Part shown: one piece after another, positions 1 to 5,427 of the stretch | How the letters are laid out: each line of letters starts with the position of its first letter | How positions within the stretch are numbered: the first letter of the stretch is position 1 | IMG/VR virus record: IMGVR_UViG_3300030381_000336 | DNA from: a virus | Taxonomy: Duplodnaviria > Heunggongvirae > Uroviricota > Caudoviricetes | Reading direction: 5' to 3' (one strand) | Length of the DNA stretch: 5,427 nt | Position numbers and translations under genes: made by a program | Notes under the pieces: generated by a model | What the model was told of the DNA's origin: nothing | Databases searched by the model: none | The model's input: the letters and a program-made list of their open reading frames with translations, nothing else

Positions 1-484
1 AATTGTTTCCTTTACCTGCATATACCCAGCTGGTACGGAAAATAAGGTGCTTCGCACAATGCTCTTGTAATGCTTTTTCTCCAGCTAACTTGGTTTCACC
101 GTAAACATTTAGCGGTGCGGTTGCATCCGTCTCCAGCCATGGCGTGTCGCCATTTCCAGGGAATACGTAGTCAGTTGAGTAATGAATTACCCAAGCCCCA
201 ACTTCATTAGCCGCTTTTGCAATTGATTCAACACTAGTCGCATTGAGTAATTGTGCAAATTCGGGTTCTGACTCAGCCTTATCTACTGCGGTATGAGCAG
301 CAGCATTAACAATAACATCAGGGCGAATTTTTTTGACGGTTTCAGCCACACCTTCGGGGTTGCTGAAATCTCCACAATAATCAGTGGAGTGAACATCAAG
401 AGCAATCAAATTACCTAAAGGTGCCAAAGCACGCTGTAGTTCCCAACCTACCTGCCCTGTTTTGCCGAAAAGGAGGATATTCAT
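1..484 (-). CDS. rfbD: dTDP-4-dehydrorhamnose reductase (RmlD/RfbD), 5' portion only (about 161 codons); the 3' end of the gene lies beyond the window start
   Basis: Hand translation of the minus strand from ATG (revcomp of 482..484) gives [36 protein letters not shown], which matches the RmlD N-terminus as I recall it. The frame stays open to position 1. Position downstream of rfbB fits the usual rmlB-rmlD-rmlA-rmlC order. Not in the ORF track as a minus-strand ORF, presumably because it is truncated by the window edge. Confidence 0.88.
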   Translation of the reverse strand, partial: MNILLFGKTGQVGWELQRALAPLGNLIALDVHSTDYCGDFSNPEGVAETVKKIRPDVIVNAAAHTAVDKAESEPEFAQLLNATSVESIAKAANEVGAWVIHYSTDYVFPGNGDTPWLETDATAPLNVYGETKLAGEKALQEHCAKHLIFRTSWVYAGKGNN

Positions 485-1569
485 TACTGGCGGCCCTCAT
501 AGTTCTGTTCAATCCACGATTGATAGGCACCACTTTTCACATTATCAACCCATTTTGTATTGGACAGGTACCATTCCACTGTCTTCCGAATCCCGCTCTC
601 AAACGTTTCCTGCGGTTTCCAGCCCAATTCGCGGCTAATCTTCTCTGCATCAATCGCATAACGGCGATCGTGTCCCGGGCGATCGGCAACATAAGTAATT
701 TGCTCGCGGTAAGATTTCTCTTTCGGTACAATCTCATCCAGCAAATCACAAATAGTGAGCACTACATCGATGTTTTTCTTTTCGTTGTGTCCACCAATGT
801 TATAAGTTTCACCCGCTTTACCTTCGGTTACGACGGTATATAACGCACGCGCATGATCTTCAACATACAGCCAGTCACGAATTTGATCCCCTTTGCCATA
901 AATAGGTAATGCCTTACTTTCCAGAGCATTAAGAATTACTAGTGGAATCAATTTTTCCGGAAAGTGATAAGGACCGTAGTTATTCGAACAGTTAGTCACA
1001 ATGGTCGGTAAACCATAGGTACGTTTCCACGCGCGGACTAAATGATCGCTGGATGCTTTTGAAGCGGAATAAGGGCTGCTTGGCGCGTAAGCTGTTGTCT
1101 CTGTAAATAAGGGTAATTCTTCTGTATTATTTACCTCGTCAGGATGAGGCAAATCACCATAGACTTCGTCAGTAGAAATATGATGAAAACGGAAGCTAGT
1201 TTTCTTGTCGCTATCAAGAGCAGACCAATAATTGCGAGCGGCTTCCAAAAGGACATATGTACCAACAATATTGGTTTCAATAAATGCCGCAGGACCTGTA
1301 ATTGAACGGTCAACATGGCTTTCAGCAGCCAGGTGCATCACTGCATCTGGCTGATGCTGAGCAAAAATCCGTGCCATTGCAGCTGCATCGCAAATATCCG
1401 CATGTTCAAAAACATAGCGTTCAGAATCAGAAACATCAGCAAGTGATTCCAGGTTTCCGGCGTACGTTAATTTATCGACATTAACAACACTATCCTGCGT
1501 ATTATTTATAATGTGACGAACTACAGCAGAACCAATAAATCCTGCGCCACCAGTAACAAGTATTTTCAC
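484..1569 (-). CDS. rfbB: dTDP-glucose 4,6-dehydratase (RmlB/RfbB), complete, 361 aa, GTG start
   Basis: ORF track 484..1569 minus. N-terminal Rossmann motif GGAGFIGS and catalytic YxxxK (PYSASK) of the extended SDR family are visible. Length and sequence match E. coli RfbB as I recall it. Start codon is GTG (revcomp of 1567..1569 'cac'); an upstream in-frame-looking ATG is followed immediately by TAA. Stop TAA at 486..484. Confidence 0.95.
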
Positions 1570-1644
1570 CTAATTTATTCCATATTGCTTCAGAGCATGC
1601 TGTGAAATAAGCGGCTCTCAGTTTGATTAATAGAAGTATTAATG

Positions 1645-1683
1645 CACGCTACCGCCCCTGGCTTTACAGCTACCAGAGCACTG
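1645..1683 (-). promoter_or_regulatory. JUMPstart element (39 bp) in the untranslated leader of the O-antigen operon
   Basis: Plus-strand 1645..1683 'cacgctaccgcccctggctttacagctaccagagcactg' is the exact reverse complement of the canonical JUMPstart sequence CAGTGCTCTGGTAGCTGTAAAGCCAGGGGCGGTAGCGTG. It lies about 75-115 nt upstream of the rfbB start on the coding strand. Confidence 0.9.
1649..1656 (-). promoter_or_regulatory. ops element (GGCGGTAG), the RfaH recruitment site within JUMPstart
   Basis: Minus-strand GGCGGTAG is the reverse complement of plus 1649..1656 'ctaccgcc'. ops is the established non-template-strand signal that loads RfaH onto paused RNA polymerase in long polysaccharide operons. 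Confidence 0.88.
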
Positions 1684-1840
1684 CATGCATGCCTACGATG
1701 TGACGAGCGTTACCCACTCGCGCTAAACCCGAAAAATTCAAAAGCTAATTGTCTTACCAATCCGCTCTGGAAACAAGGAAAATCCTGGAAAACTTTGACT
1801 AAAATCCTATTGCTAACTCGTTGTTATTCTGATTGTTTAT
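1684..1840 (-). promoter_or_regulatory. Region expected to contain the O-antigen (rfb) operon promoter, upstream of JUMPstart; exact -35/-10 not assigned
   Basis: Positional inference: the rfb promoter in E. coli, Shigella and Salmonella lies just upstream of JUMPstart in the galF-rfbB spacer. Minus-strand candidates such as TTGTTT-(17)-GACAAT are weak and I cannot choose among them by eye. Confidence 0.35.
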
Positions 1841-1903
1841 ATAAAACAACGGCAGGAATATTCGCAACAAATTACTTTCGCCACGAATCCTCACTGCCGT
1901 TAT
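1839..1903 (-). terminator. Candidate structured element or intrinsic terminator downstream of galF: 8-bp inverted repeat with nested 5-bp stem, followed by a U-rich tract on the minus strand
   Basis: Arms at plus 1848..1855 'aacggcag' and 1894..1901 'ctgccgtt' are exact reverse complements. A nested pair is at 1860..1864 'attcg' and 1884..1888 'cgaat'. On the minus strand the second arm is followed by GTTTTATAT (revcomp of 1839..1847). The loop is large (38 nt), so this is not a textbook terminator. Confidence 0.25.
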
Positions 1904-1941
1904 AATTTTCTTATCAACCGTTACATCCGGTCAGATTTTCA

Positions 1942-2835
1942 TTATTCGCTTAACAGCTTCTCAATACCTTTACGGAACTTCGCCCCTTCTTTGAGGTTGC
2001 GTAGTCCATACTTCACAAACGCCTGCATATAGCCCATTTTTTTACCGCAGTCGTAACTGTCGCCGGTCATCAGCATTGCATCAACGGACTGTTTTTTCGC
2101 CAGCTCAGCAATTGCATCTGTCAGCTGAATACGTCCCCACGCACCAGGCTGAGTACGTTCAAGTTCCGGCCAAATATCGGCAGAAAGCACATAGCGACCA
2201 ACGGCCATGATGTCTGAGTCCAGCGTCTGCGGCTGATCCGGTTTTTCGATAAATTCAACAATGCGGCTGACTTTACCTTCGCGATCCAGTGGTTCTTTGG
2301 TCTGGATGACGGAGTATTCAGAGAGGTCACCCGGCATACGTTTTGCCAGCACTTGGCTACGGCCCGTTTCATTGAAGCGCGCAATCATGGCAGCAAGGTT
2401 GTAGCGCAGCGGGTCGGCGCTGGCGTCGTCGATCACTACGTCTGGCAGTACCACGACAAATGGGTTGTCACCAATGGCGGGGCGTGCACACAAAATGGAG
2501 TGGCCTAAACCTAAAGGTTCGCCCTGACGCACGTTCATAATAGTCACGCCCGGCGGGCAGATAGATTGCACTTCCGCCAGTAGTTGACGCTTCACGCGCT
2601 GTTCAAGGAGAGATTCTAATTCATAAGAGGTGTCGAAGTGGTTTTCGACCGCGTTCTTGGACGCGTGAGTTACCAGGAGGATTTCTTTGATCCCTGCAGC
2701 CACAATCTCGTCAACAATGTACTGAATCATTGGCTTGTCGACGATCGGTAGCATCTCTTTGGGAATCGCCTTAGTGGCAGGCAACATATGCATCCCAAGA
2801 CCTGCTACCGGTATAACTGCTTTTAAATTCGTCAT
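1942..2835 (-). CDS. galF: GalF, UTP-glucose-1-phosphate uridylyltransferase paralogue (GalU-like), complete, 297 aa
   Basis: ORF track 1942..2835 minus, ATG start and TAA stop confirmed by hand. The N-terminal motif reads [12 protein letters not shown], where GalU has GLGTRMLPATK. The MH substitution is the GalF hallmark. Position between the wca genes and rfbB matches the known locus layout. Confidence 0.93.
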
Positions 2836-2974
2836 TCTTTTCCTACCTCTAAGTGGCTGATAGTGCGTAAATTATTGCCATAGGTTAGCCAAACGTTATG
2901 GCTATATACCAAAGCTTAGTTCCGCATAACTTTGATTAAACCTTACGATAACACTACACACCATCAGCATCTGG

Positions 2975-2992
2975 GTTACTCGGATTACTCGG
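2975..2992. repeat. Tandem 9-bp direct repeat (gttactcgg / attactcgg) in the gne-galF spacer, ending in a short palindrome ggaattcc
   Basis: Read directly: 2975..2983 'gttactcgg' and 2984..2992 'attactcgg' (8 of 9 identical). 2991..2998 'ggaattcc' is palindromic. Function unknown. Confidence 0.5.
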
Positions 2993-3001
2993 AATTCCGC
3001 A

Positions 3002-3021
3002 TACTGATAATTTAATCAGTA
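3002..3021. promoter_or_regulatory. Perfect 7-bp inverted repeat (tactgat-aattta-atcagta) in the galF upstream region; possible protein-binding palindrome or small hairpin
   Basis: Read directly: 3002..3008 'tactgat' and 3015..3021 'atcagta' are exact reverse complements, separated by a 6-nt AT-only loop. It lies about 170-185 nt upstream of the galF ATG on the coding strand. No T-tract follows on the minus strand, so it is unlikely to be an intrinsic terminator for gne. Confidence 0.3.
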
Positions 3022-3077
3022 CCTCTTTCCGAATAATCGTAGTCCAACCTGGTCCTTTTTTCTCTGACTCGTCTGCA

Positions 3078-4073
3078 TTACTCAGAAACAAACGTTATGT
3101 CGTCTTTTTTGGCATGAACGAATTCATACTGCAGAGTTCGATCCAGACCTTGCGACAGCGTATACGGTGCCACAAAACCTGAAGAATGCACTTTCGTTGC
3201 GTCAAACTGTGTTGTTGCGCAGAATTTTTTCACGCGCACAGAGCTGACAGCGTATTTTTTGCCCGTAATTTTGCTCAGGATATCAAAGCAATATCCACCC
3301 AACATTCCTAGTGGGTAAGGCAAGTGCATAGAAGGGATCTTTTTGTTCAGACTTTGTTCAACTTCAGCAACCAACTGGTTCATGTTCAGATCTGGCTTAT
3401 CAACGTAATTATAAACCTCATAACCTGCGGCAACATTCTTCAGTTTGTACTTGATAAACTCAACAATGTTTCCAACATAAGCCATGGACTTATAGTTAGT
3501 CCCTGCGCCCACCATCATAAACTTGCCGCCAGCGATCTGTTTCAGCAAATTATAGACGTTACCGCGGTTGCGTTCACCGAAGATAACGGTAGGACGGATG
3601 ATGGTTAATGAACGTTCTGTTGGTGCTTTGTTATACCATTCACGCAGCACTTCCTCTGCCTGCCACTTACTTTTGCCGTAGTGGTTGAAAGGATCGTGTG
3701 GATGGTTTTCGTCAGGGTTGTGTTTGTTCAAACCATAAACAGCAACGGAACTGGTAAAGATGATATTTTTAACGCCATTTTTTTCCATGGCCGCCAGCAC
3801 ATTGCGGGTACCCTGAACGTTGACATCATAATAGAGAGAAGTAGGGCTGACGTCATCGCGGTGTTCCGCTGCCAGTAGTACAACAGTGTCAAAACCGGCT
3901 AACGCCTGGTCGAGTGCCTGTTGATCACGAACATCGCCAATCTGTGTGATTTCTGGATAAAAGTGGCTCTGCTGTTTGTCCAGGTTCTTGATATTAAAGT
4001 CAGCAATTGCCGTTTCAAGTAGTCGGGTTCCTACGAATCCGGAAGCTCCTATGAGCAAAACGTTATCGTTCAT
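3078..4073 (-). CDS. gne: NAD-dependent sugar-nucleotide 4-epimerase of the Gne family (UDP-N-acetylglucosamine 4-epimerase, extended SDR), complete, 331 aa
   Basis: ORF track 3078..4073 minus, ATG start and TAA stop confirmed by hand. N-terminal GxxGxxG (GASGFVG) and catalytic YxxxK (YGKSK) are present. It is clearly different from GalE proper. The N-terminus MNDNVLLIGASGFVGTRLLE and the 331-aa length match what I recall of the gne/Z3206-type gene found between wcaM and galF in E. coli strains with GalNAc-containing O-antigens. Confidence 0.8.
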   Translation of the reverse strand: MNDNVLLIGASGFVGTRLLETAIADFNIKNLDKQQSHFYPEITQIGDVRDQQALDQALAGFDTVVLLAAEHRDDVSPTSLYYDVNVQGTRNVLAAMEKNGVKNIIFTSSVAVYGLNKHNPDENHPHDPFNHYGKSKWQAEEVLREWYNKAPTERSLTIIRPTVIFGERNRGNVYNLLKQIAGGKFMMVGAGTNYKSMAYVGNIVEFIKYKLKNVAAGYEVYNYVDKPDLNMNQLVAEVEQSLNKKIPSMHLPYPLGMLGGYCFDILSKITGKKYAVSSVRVKKFCATTQFDATKVHSSGFVAPYTLSQGLDRTLQYEFVHAKKDDITFVSE

Positions 4074-4174
4074 AAATCACTTTAGTCTGGTTGTTACGTA
4101 AGAAACACAAGATAAAGATGAGTACCTTCCCTGAGTAGTCAATGCTGCCCAGCCCCAGCTTTAACAGTTAGTGT

Positions 4175-4205
4175 GAGGATTATAATCTTTTAGAACATTA
4201 TATCC
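4175..4205 (-). promoter_or_regulatory. Candidate promoter elements for gne: two perfect TATAAT hexamers on the minus strand in the wcaM-gne spacer
   Basis: Minus-strand TATAAT at plus 4197..4202 ('attata') and at 4179..4184, the latter inside the 10-bp palindrome 'gattataatc' (4178..4187). Neither has a good -35 hexamer at 16-18 bp spacing. A TTGACT -35-like hexamer lies further downstream without a good -10. Confidence 0.3.
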
Positions 4206-4230
4206 AGTAAGTTTATGAATGGTCGCAAAT

Positions 4231-5427
4231 CTACTCTCTCCGTTCCGGCAATCTAAAGTTAATCTTTTCCACATTAACAATATGGTGATTAATCCTGTCG
4301 ATATCGACGGAGCTTTGTCCTTTTTCATTCACCGCATGAACATTTGCAAGTGACAGCAGTGTTTCTTTTTTCGCCATAAACACGCCGCGAACGTCTTTGC
4401 GCATGTCGAAGTTCATGCTCAATGCTGGTCCAACTGAGGATTCCTGCATCACTTTGATATTACGCATAAAAAGATGTTGCGGTTTATTGTGAAGCTCCAG
4501 CGAGGCACGCTTCATCTCAATGTTAGTCAGCGCCACAAAGGAGACAGCATTCCCGGCGGAGATTTGGATGCCGCGCAATTTATAAGCAAGATGGGTGTTA
4601 TCCAGTTGAATATTATTCACTCGGAAATTTTGCGGTATCGAGAGATATTTGCCTTTAATTACCCCATAGCCGATTAACATCCCGGCGCTATTAATCATTT
4701 CAATATTATCAATCACGAAATTGTCACAACCGTAAATAGCGACTGTGGCGTTATCAATACCTGCTTTCTTACTGAAATCCGGTGTGATATTGCGGGCTTT
4801 GATATTACGAATAACAAAATGTTTACCATTTTCAACATGGATCAACTGCCGACAATCCGATCCCGTGATATTCGCCACGACAAAGTTTTTCACTGCCTGG
4901 TCTTCCGGGTAATTATTATCGTAAGTGCTTCCCGCAAGGCCTATGCCGATGCCCCAGTTGATTTTGCCGTTGGTACAGTTGATGCGCTCGATGACATGGT
5001 CAGATATCAAAATATCACTGTCGTTAATCGCCACGTTCCATTCAATAGCGTCCCCCTGTAAGTCGCTGAACTTACAATTGGTGATGTTGGCACCGATAAT
5101 CTGGTTATGAAATCCCTGGCGTAAGATGGCGTAATTAGCGTGGCTGACAGTGAGGTTATCGATGGTCAGGTTGCGCATGACCCGTTTGTTTTTGCCGCCG
5201 ATATAAATCTGCGTTACCGGGCCAAAGCCGCTCATCGCCAGCCCTTTGATGGTGCAGTCAGAACCACGCACATCCAGGGTGATGTTATGCATACTGCCGC
5301 CCTCCTCCCCTGTCACCTGGCTGCCGTCCTGTAAGACAAATCGCCCTCTGCCGTTGCCGCGCAGGCTTCCAAGGATGTGTAACGTTTTGCCAGGAGGAAT
5401 GAAGATGCCGGTGTTGATATTGTCACA
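4231..5427 (-). CDS. wcaM: Colanic acid biosynthesis protein WcaM, C-terminal about 398 codons; the N-terminus lies beyond the window end
   Basis: ORF track 4231..5316 minus; the listed start is a GTG (revcomp of 5314..5316) and is only apparent. I translated 5317..5427 in the same frame by hand ([37 protein letters not shown]) with no stop, so the ORF runs off the window. The protein shows periodic N-x-x-I/V-x-N-I/L repeats typical of a right-handed parallel beta-helix and matches E. coli WcaM as I recall it. Stop TAG at 4233..4231. Confidence 0.85.

What the first reader, a model, noticed from the sequence alone, without database searches (positions are those of the whole stretch)
3078..4073. 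Strain-variable gne (UDP-GlcNAc 4-epimerase family) gene between wcaM and galF
In E. coli K-12, as I recall the gene order (rfbB, galF, wcaM), galF and wcaM are adjacent. Here a 331-aa Gne-family epimerase sits between them with its own spacers (4074..4230 upstream, 2836..3077 downstream). This arrangement is known from E. coli serogroups whose O-antigen contains GalNAc, so it points to a GalNAc-containing O unit combined with an rml (L-rhamnose) pathway. The biochemical substrate of this protein family has been debated (UDP-GlcNAc versus undecaprenyl-PP-GlcNAc). The gene also looks AT-rich relative to galF.
Basis: partly seen in the sequence, partly recalled or inferred. Interest (0 to 1): 0.45.

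Follow-up and report, generated by a model that had tools for sequence, protein, structure and literature searches.

The report
Known gnu O-antigen epimerase gene
This is the well-known, strain-variable E. coli gene gnu (formerly gne, Z3206 in O157:H7), which converts the lipid-linked first sugar of the O-antigen from GlcNAc to GalNAc; it is real, intact and ordinary.

Summary
A 331-aa ORF lies at 3078..4073 on the minus strand, between wcaM and galF, with spacers of 157 and 242 nt. K-12 lacks it: a 1364-bp cassette (2853..4216) replaces 142 bp of the K-12 wcaM-galF spacer. The protein is 100% identical to RefSeq WP_000999466.1, which PGAP names Und-PP-GlcNAc 4-epimerase. That same protein is found in O157:H7, O147, O107/O117 and other backgrounds. 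The gene is present in 1323 of 5426 complete E. coli genomes. Both published diagnostic primer pairs for the galF-linked gnu match the window. Since Rush 2010 and Cunneen 2013 this clade (D, gnu) has been separated from true UDP-GlcNAc 4-epimerases (clade A, Gne/GalE). The window protein fails the GalE model (71 bits against a cutoff of 262) and is 30% identical to GalE. [quoted passage not shown] The serogroup cannot be read from this window, because the same cassette sits upstream of at least three different rml-containing clusters. Nothing here is novel. One side observation is that the cassette is far more uniform across E. coli than its flanks.

The parts
3078..4073 (-). gnu (old names gne, Z3206): a 331-aa extended-SDR 4-epimerase, annotated as N-acetyl-alpha-D-glucosaminyl-diphospho-ditrans,octacis-undecaprenol 4-epimerase
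   Evidence: ORF. It is 100% identical in amino acids to WP_000999466.1 in O157:H7, O147 and other strains, and all 1-13 nucleotide differences are synonymous. PF01370 gives E=8.5e-31. GxxGxxG is at residues 9-15 and YGKSK at 132-136. The Cunneen 2013 primers match.
2853..4216 (.). The 1364-bp presence/absence cassette (gnu plus most of both spacers). It replaces 142 bp of the K-12 wcaM-galF spacer.
   Evidence: blastn of the window against the K-12 region aligns only 3..2852 and 4217..5427; alignment A1. No flanking direct or inverted repeats suggest a mobile element.
4074..4230 (-). wcaM-gnu spacer with a candidate sigma-70 promoter (TGGATA-16-TATAAT, 4206..4179) inside the cassette
   Evidence: The consensus scan scores 10 of 12, but the number of sites found is not above the shuffled expectation, so this is a candidate only. 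The spacer is 157/157 identical in all seven E. coli comparators that carry gnu. It is not unusually structured (z=+0.77).
2836..3077 (-). gnu-galF spacer. It carries whatever drives galF in gnu-positive strains, and it is strongly self-complementary as RNA.
   Evidence: MFE is -72.9 kcal/mol, z=-4.49, and 0 of 200 shuffles fold as well. There is no canonical intrinsic terminator and no Rfam match. It is 99.2-100% identical across E. coli. Cross-genus covariation is inconclusive.
1942..2835 (-). galF, the conserved 5' flank of the O-antigen locus
   Evidence: TIGR01105 scores 689 bits, above its cutoff. The identical GalF protein is found both with gnu and without it.
4231..5427 (-). wcaM, 3' 399 codons, the last gene of the colanic acid cluster; it runs off the window
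   Evidence: NF007517 scores 812 bits over profile positions 105-464. The frame is open to the window edge.
1645..1683 (-). JUMPstart element with ops (GGCGGTAG at 1649-1656), upstream of rfbB. It marks the start of the RfaH-dependent O-antigen operon, so gnu and galF lie upstream of it.
   Evidence: Rfam RF01707 scores 60 bits, E=2.2e-12. Exact ops match.
484..1569 (-). rfbB (rmlB), dTDP-glucose 4,6-dehydratase
   Evidence: NF007490 scores 795 bits.
2..484 (-). rfbD (rmlD), first 161 codons; it runs off the window
   Evidence: Open translation. Annotated as rfbD in matching genomes.

Best explanation
The gene is gnu, the galF-linked Und-PP-GlcNAc 4-epimerase of E. coli. WecA first makes undecaprenyl-PP-GlcNAc on the cytoplasmic face of the inner membrane. 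Gnu is a soluble or peripheral NAD-dependent extended short-chain dehydrogenase/reductase. It then inverts C4 of the lipid-linked sugar, by transient oxidation to the 4-keto intermediate and re-reduction through the Ser/Tyr/Lys site, to give Und-PP-GalNAc. That product is the acceptor on which the serogroup-specific glycosyltransferases build the O unit. Here those glycosyltransferases would use dTDP-L-rhamnose made by the adjacent rml genes. The gene lies outside the RfaH/JUMPstart-controlled O-antigen operon, on a 1.36-kb cassette that is present in about a quarter of E. coli and that moves between backgrounds by homologous recombination in wcaM/galF. What is shown here: the gene's identity, its locus, its intact motifs, its distribution and its synonymous-only variation. 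What is taken from the literature: the substrate and the pathway. What is inferred: that this particular strain's O unit begins with GalNAc, and that the promoter is the one suggested.
For: The protein has no amino-acid differences from WP_000999466.1, which PGAP names N-acetyl-alpha-D-glucosaminyl-diphospho-ditrans,octacis-undecaprenol 4-epimerase, including the copy in O157:H7 strain F7386. Its computed mass of 37,142 Da matches the 37,141 Da listed for Z3206 (gne), next to Z3205 (galF), in the O157 proteome paper. That paper detected the protein and found it enriched in insoluble and high-density fractions with other O-antigen enzymes (PMC3210124). [quoted passage not shown] Both Cunneen 2013 primer pairs for clade D gnu and for the gnu-galF junction match with 0-1 mismatch and in the correct orientation. 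Cunneen 2013 (PMC3682973) reports that Rush 2010 found the O157 enzyme inactive on UDP-GlcNAc and active on Und-PP-GlcNAc. It also reports that gnu presence or absence fits the O-antigen structure in 104 of 115 serogroups. The GASGFVG motif and S109/Y132/K136 align with GalE S124/Y149/K153. The predicted fold is an extended SDR epimerase. None of the 1-13 nucleotide differences from the five distinct E. coli alleles changes an amino acid, which indicates purifying selection. The closest whole-window relatives are O147 and O107/O117 strains that carry the same gnu-galF-rfbBD arrangement.
Against: No NCBIfam equivalog model reaches its cutoff for this protein, so the family call rests on identity to a named RefSeq protein and on the literature. 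The structural basis for recognising a lipid-linked substrate is unknown: there is no close solved structure (best E=2e-17, at most 24% identity), and my model is only moderate (pLDDT 72.6) and weak around residues 110-132. The promoter is a consensus match only. Cunneen 2013 records 10 cases of a gnu or gne gene present when the structure did not predict it, so a GalNAc-first O unit in this strain is likely but not proven.
Confidence: 0.88

Rival explanations
1. It is a true Gne: a nucleotide-sugar epimerase that interconverts UDP-GlcNAc and UDP-GalNAc (the original 2002 annotation), with WecA or a glycosyltransferase then using UDP-GalNAc.
For: The historical name is gne, or 'putative UDP-galactose 4-epimerase'. 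Some sources still label 82-87% identical homologs as UDP-N-acetylglucosamine or UDP-glucose 4-epimerase. The nearest solved structures are UDP-hexose and UDP-GlcNAc 4-epimerases, and the catalytic residues align with GalE.
Against: As cited in PMC3682973, Rush 2010 found no activity on UDP-GlcNAc. Clade D is separate from the Gne/GalE clade A. The GalE equivalog TIGR01179 scores 71 bits against a cutoff of 262 and aligns only residues 5-170. Identity to GalE is 30% with 17% gaps. O86 needs both this gene and a separate clade A gne, so the two functions differ. O107/O117 strains here likewise carry both gnu and a cluster-internal galE/gne homolog.
Confidence: 0.06
2. The gene is a functional Gnu, but in this strain it is a dispensable passenger. 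The cassette was co-inherited or recombined in with the wcaM-galF flank, and the strain's O unit actually starts with GlcNAc.
For: [quoted passage not shown] The identical GalF protein occurs with and without gnu. The cassette is 98.7-100% identical across unrelated O clusters, while the flanks differ by 3-4.5%, which shows independent movement.
Against: The ORF is intact and shows only synonymous variation. The nearest rml-containing relatives carry it in the same arrangement. Cases of a gene present but not predicted are a small minority, 10 for gnu and gne together among 115 serogroups.
Confidence: 0.1
3. It is some other extended-SDR enzyme, such as a dehydratase, a reductase or an HpnA/3-beta-HSD-like enzyme, and is unrelated to HexNAc 4-epimerisation.
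For: The best NCBIfam hits are HpnA (95 bits) and LegB (82 bits), and Pfam 3Beta_HSD gives E=3e-27.
Against: All of those NCBIfam hits are far below their curated cutoffs of 368 to 475 bits. The protein is identical to the biochemically characterised O157 enzyme. Its locus and its statistical association with GalNAc-first O antigens fit epimerase function.
Confidence: 0.02

Closest known systems
Gnu (Z3206) of E. coli O157:H7, equal to Gne1 of O86:B7: Und-PP-GlcNAc 4-epimerase, clade D of Cunneen et al. 2013
   Same: The amino-acid sequence is identical, with 12 synonymous nucleotide differences from O157:H7 F7386. The locus between wcaM and galF is the same, as are the spacers (99.2-100% identical). 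The mass matches Z3206. The diagnostic primers match.
   Different: Nothing differs at the protein level. The downstream O-antigen cluster differs: here it begins with rfbB-rfbD, whereas in O157 a glycosyltransferase gene follows galF.
Gne / GalE (clade A): UDP-GlcNAc and UDP-Glc 4-epimerases, for example E. coli K-12 GalE, O86 Gne2 and Y. enterocolitica O8 Gne
   Same: Both have the extended SDR fold, a GxxGxxG NAD site and a Ser/Tyr/Lys catalytic site, and presumably the same 4-keto-intermediate chemistry.
   Different: Identity to GalE is only 30% with 17% gaps, and the C-terminal substrate domain aligns poorly. The protein fails TIGR01179 (71 bits against 262). The reported substrate is lipid-linked rather than nucleotide-linked. 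It lies outside the O-antigen operon, whereas gne genes lie inside it.
Gnu orthologues in other Enterobacterales (Enterobacter hormaechei, Cronobacter sakazakii, Kluyvera, Pseudocitrobacter, Mixta and others)
   Same: They are 81-89% identical in amino acids and 331-333 aa long. The wcaM-gnu-galF order is conserved in E. hormaechei and C. sakazakii.
   Different: Nucleotide identity is 73-76%, similar to that of the flanking genes. The spacers are barely alignable. In one genome (AP025685, L016) gnu-galF is not preceded by a colanic acid cluster.

Membership tests
Gnu (clade D Und-PP-GlcNAc 4-epimerase, Cunneen 2013) | Sequence falls in clade D with the characterised E. coli O157 enzyme | tested here: met
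   There are no amino-acid differences from WP_000999466.1 as encoded in O157:H7 F7386. The mass of 37,142 Da compares with 37,141 Da for Z3206.
Gnu (clade D Und-PP-GlcNAc 4-epimerase, Cunneen 2013) | Gene located just upstream of galF, outside the O-antigen operon proper (the enterobacterial galF-linked locus) | tested here: met
   The order is wcaM-gnu-galF-JUMPstart-rfbB. The arrangement is the same in O157, O147 and O107/O117 genomes.
Gnu (clade D Und-PP-GlcNAc 4-epimerase, Cunneen 2013) | Positive in the published PCR assays (gnu-internal primers and gnu-galF junction primers) | tested here: met
   In silico, the primers sit at 3928-3945(-) with 1 mismatch and 3282-3299(+), giving a 664-bp product. 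The junction primers sit at 3121-3142(-) and 2717-2738(+), giving 426 bp, with 0 mismatches.
Gnu (clade D Und-PP-GlcNAc 4-epimerase, Cunneen 2013) | Epimerises Und-PP-GlcNAc to Und-PP-GalNAc and is inactive on UDP-GlcNAc | not testable with these tools
   This is reported for the identical O157 protein by Rush 2010, as cited in PMC3682973 and PMC7685785. The primary paper is not held.
Gnu (clade D Und-PP-GlcNAc 4-epimerase, Cunneen 2013) | Host O unit has GalNAc as its first (reducing-end) sugar | not testable with these tools
   The window ends in rfbD, and the source genome is not in the collections searched (best whole-window identity 97.8%).
Extended SDR (NAD-dependent epimerase/dehydratase, PF01370) | N-terminal GxxGxxG Rossmann motif, catalytic Ser/Thr and YxxxK | tested here: met
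   PF01370 gives E=8.5e-31, above its gathering score. GASGFVG is at 9-15, and S109, Y132 and K136 align with GalE S124, Y149 and K153. The fold search returns SDR epimerases and dehydratases.
Gne/GalE (clade A UDP-hexose / UDP-HexNAc 4-epimerase) | Passes the GalE equivalog model, or is closely similar to characterised Gne/GalE | tested here: not met
   TIGR01179 scores 71.4 bits against a cutoff of 262.3 and NF007956 scores 56 against 394. Identity to K-12 GalE is 30% with 17% gaps.
Gne/GalE (clade A UDP-hexose / UDP-HexNAc 4-epimerase) | Gene lies inside the O-antigen cluster (between the JUMPstart element and gnd) when it serves O-antigen synthesis | tested here: not met
   The gene is upstream of both galF and the JUMPstart element. 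In O107/O117 strains a separate galE/gne homolog occupies the cluster-internal position.

The most novel reading that the evidence does not exclude
The 242-nt gnu-galF spacer that travels with the cassette is a functional structured RNA or DNA element, for example a processing or stability element, an attenuator, or the relic of a small mobile element. It would rewire galF expression in gnu-positive strains, because it replaces everything upstream of galF except about 17 nt. The unusually low diversity of the cassette (98.7-100% identity against 95.5-97.2% for the flanks) would then reflect a recent species-wide spread of one allele.
Probability: 0.08. Interest if true: 0.3.

Novelty: already known. 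Interest (0 to 1): 0.08.

Why it matters
The gene is a practical marker. The presence of gnu upstream of galF predicts that the O unit starts with GalNAc rather than GlcNAc. That fixes the order in which the glycosyltransferases act and identifies the linkage made by Wzy. The enzyme is also useful in glycoengineering when a GalNAc reducing end is needed. None of this is new. For this window the value lies in correct annotation: it should be called gnu, an Und-PP-GlcNAc 4-epimerase, not gne or galE. The open scientific point is how a soluble SDR recognises a polyprenyl-diphosphate sugar, since no close structure exists. That question applies to the whole family and is not specific to this locus.

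Tried and rejected
(1) A wcaM pseudogene. The ORF listing gave wcaM as 361 aa with a GTG start, which suggested an in-frame stop. Translation of 4231..5427 is open throughout and aligns with K-12, O147 and O157, so this was an artefact of how the tool picks start codons.

(2) Finding the source genome or serogroup. An exact-protein look-up of RfbB found nothing. The GalF look-up returned many unrelated backgrounds. A 48-nt spacer pattern hit one E. coli contig (97.5% identical) and one Shigella flexneri chromosome whose alignment has 37 gap openings, which looks like a noisy assembly. Segment searches peak at 98.3% for rfbBD, 97.8% for galF and 98.4% for wcaM. The source is therefore not in these collections and the serogroup stays undetermined.

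(3) A mobile-element origin for the cassette. No terminal direct or inverted repeats lie at 2853/4216, so I rejected this in favour of homologous recombination in the flanks.

(4) A conserved RNA structure in the gnu-galF spacer. Three genera align poorly, the RNAalifold consensus energy is only -3.96 kcal/mol, and several pairs are broken. This is inconclusive.

(5) Structural insight into lipid-substrate binding. The AF2 model is only moderate (pLDDT 72.6, and low around residues 110-132 and 276-289), and Foldseek returns generic SDR epimerases. I drew no specific conclusion from it.

(6) Reading Rush 2010 and Wang 2002 directly. Neither is held, so I relied on citing papers.

Full report
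**Observation.** The window holds, all on the minus strand, the 3' 399 codons of wcaM (4231..5427), a 331-aa ORF (3078..4073), galF (1942..2835), rfbB (484..1569) and the first 161 codons of rfbD (2..484). The ORF is a real gene. It matches Pfam PF01370 (NAD-dependent epimerase/dehydratase) at E=8.5e-31. Its translation is identical to RefSeq protein WP_000999466.1.

**Strain variability and K-12.** In MG1655, galF and wcaM are neighbours separated by 174 bp. blastn of the window against that K-12 region aligns only 3..2852 (93.8%) and 4217..5427 (95.9%). So a 1364-bp segment (2853..4216) replaces 142 bp of K-12 sequence. This segment comprises gnu, all but 14 nt of its upstream spacer and all but 17 nt of its downstream spacer. 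The breaks fall 14 nt after the wcaM stop and 17 nt before the galF start. No terminal repeats flank the segment. The gene is found in 1323 of 5426 complete E. coli genomes, once per genome in nearly all of them, and on the chromosome in all but one case. Of those, 338 genomes match at least 80% of the whole window, meaning they also have rfbB-rfbD next to galF.

**Identity.** PGAP names the protein N-acetyl-alpha-D-glucosaminyl-diphospho-ditrans,octacis-undecaprenol 4-epimerase. The window's protein has no amino-acid differences from the copies in O157:H7 F7386, O147 UMNF18 and strain 2014C-4587. The 12, 13 and 1 nucleotide differences respectively are all synonymous. Its computed mass of 37,142 Da matches the 37,141 Da listed for Z3206 ('gne'), next to Z3205 (galF), in an O157:H7 proteome study. 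That study also detected the protein and found it enriched in insoluble and high-density fractions with other O-antigen enzymes (PMC3210124). Cunneen et al. 2013 (PMC3682973) published two PCR assays for this gene. All four primers match the window with 0-1 mismatch and in the correct orientation, giving predicted products of 664 bp (3282..3945) and 426 bp (2717..3142).

**What family it belongs to.** Cunneen et al. split the former 'Gne' proteins into three groups: clade A (true Gne plus GalE, nucleotide-sugar epimerases), clade B (GnaB) and clade D (Gnu). The E. coli O157 enzyme is the characterised type of clade D. They report that Rush et al. 2010 found it inactive on UDP-GlcNAc and active on Und-PP-GlcNAc. 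They also report that O86 Gne1, at this same locus, is identical to the O157 protein, while O86 needs a second, clade A gne. Finally, gnu presence or absence fitted the O-antigen structure in 104 of 115 serogroups. The 2019 E. coli O-antigen review and later structural papers use the same assignment. My own tests agree that the window protein is not a clade A enzyme. It scores 71 bits on the GalE equivalog TIGR01179, whose cutoff is 262, and only over residues 5-170. It is 30% identical to K-12 GalE with 17% gaps. It does keep the SDR machinery: GASGFVG at 9-15, with S109, Y132 and K136 aligned to GalE S124, Y149 and K153. No NCBIfam equivalog passes its cutoff. The family call therefore rests on identity to the characterised protein, not on a profile model.

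**Mechanism.** From the literature: WecA makes Und-PP-GlcNAc, Gnu epimerises C4 to give Und-PP-GalNAc, and the cluster's glycosyltransferases extend it. By analogy with GalE-type SDR epimerases, the chemistry is NAD-dependent oxidation to a 4-keto intermediate followed by re-reduction from the opposite face; this is an inference from the conserved catalytic residues. The protein has no transmembrane segment, since the highest 19-residue Kyte-Doolittle mean is 1.45 and lies at the Rossmann beta-1 strand. It must therefore meet its lipid-linked substrate at the membrane surface, which fits the fractionation data. How it recognises the polyprenyl diphosphate is unknown. There is no close solved structure (best PDB sequence hit E=2e-17). 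An AlphaFold model built on 30 homologs is only moderate, with pLDDT 72.6, pTM 0.75 and low confidence at residues 71-80, 110-132 and 276-289. It resembles generic extended-SDR sugar epimerases and dehydratases, with TM 0.6-0.66 and at most 24% identity.

**Regulatory context.** Rfam finds a JUMPstart element at 1645..1683 on the minus strand (60 bits), and it contains the ops octamer at 1649..1656. The RfaH-dependent O-antigen operon therefore begins downstream of galF, and gnu lies outside it. A consensus sigma-70 candidate (TGGATA-16-TATAAT, 4206..4179) lies inside the cassette upstream of gnu. However, the scan found no more promoter-like sites than shuffled sequence gives, so it is only a candidate.

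**Serogroup inference.** The same Gnu protein lies upstream of O147, O107/O117, an unnamed DX6-type cluster, O157 and 2014C-4587 clusters. Three of those start with rfbB-rfbD. The identical GalF protein occurs with and without gnu. [quoted passage not shown] The source genome is not in the collections searched. The best whole-window identity is 97.8% (to O147 strains). Segment maxima are 98.3% for rfbBD, 97.8% for galF and 98.4% for wcaM, against 99.9% for gnu.

**Side observations.** (a) Across seven E. coli comparators, gnu and its two spacers are 98.7-100% identical to the window. galF is only 95.5-96.3% identical, almost all of it synonymous change, and wcaM is 96.7-97.2% identical. This fits one recently shared allele recombining among older flanks. 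Between genera, in contrast, gnu diverges about as much as its neighbours (73-76% against 73-81%), and wcaM-gnu-galF synteny holds in E. hormaechei and C. sakazakii. (b) The gnu-galF spacer folds far better than shuffled controls (z=-4.49), but cross-genus support for a conserved structure is inconclusive.

**Verdict.** The feature is already known and ordinary.

Noticed in passing
window 2836..3080 (minus-strand RNA): The gnu-galF spacer is strongly self-complementary. Its MFE is -72.9 kcal/mol, z=-4.49, and 0 of 200 shuffles fold as well. It forms two long imperfect hairpins. There is no Rfam match and no canonical terminator. An alignment with the E. hormaechei and C. sakazakii spacers gave only weak, inconclusive covariation.
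   Followed up: partly
window 2836..4230 compared with 1942..2835 and 4231..5427: The gnu cassette (gene plus spacers) is 98.7-100% identical to seven E. coli comparators from different O-serogroups. The flanking galF is 95.5-96.3% identical and wcaM is 96.7-97.2% identical. This suggests that a single gnu allele spread recently by recombination into older, diverged flanks.
   Followed up: partly
window 1942..2835 (galF): This galF allele has no full-length match above 97.8% identity in 5426 complete E. coli genomes, yet it encodes a GalF protein that is very common (its exact sequence is indexed in 74,377 blocks of the collection). The divergence is almost purely synonymous. The source lineage appears to be unsampled in the collection.
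   Followed up: partly
window 1645..1683 (minus strand): There is a canonical JUMPstart/ops element (Rfam RF01707, 60 bits; GGCGGTAG at 1649-1656) between galF and rfbB. It marks the RfaH-dependent start of the O-antigen operon.
   Followed up: yes
L021 and L022 (O107/O117-family strains 2015C-4498 and Z135-5): These genomes carry gnu upstream of galF and also a cluster-internal galE/gne homolog next to gnd. [quoted passage not shown] These strains may be O117, or the gnu cassette may be variable within the O107/O117 group.
   Followed up: no
L014 (Shigella flexneri SFBU0723, CP182557.1): The homologous region aligns to the window at 93.7% with 37 gap openings over 3.8 kb. That is much gappier than any E. 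coli comparator and suggests assembly indel errors rather than biology.
   Followed up: no
L016 (AP025685.1, labelled Salmonella by one source): Here gnu-galF sits next to a TerC-family gene and asmA rather than a colanic acid cluster, and the gnu-galF spacer is only 129 nt. gnu-galF linkage is therefore kept even where wcaM is not adjacent.
   Followed up: no
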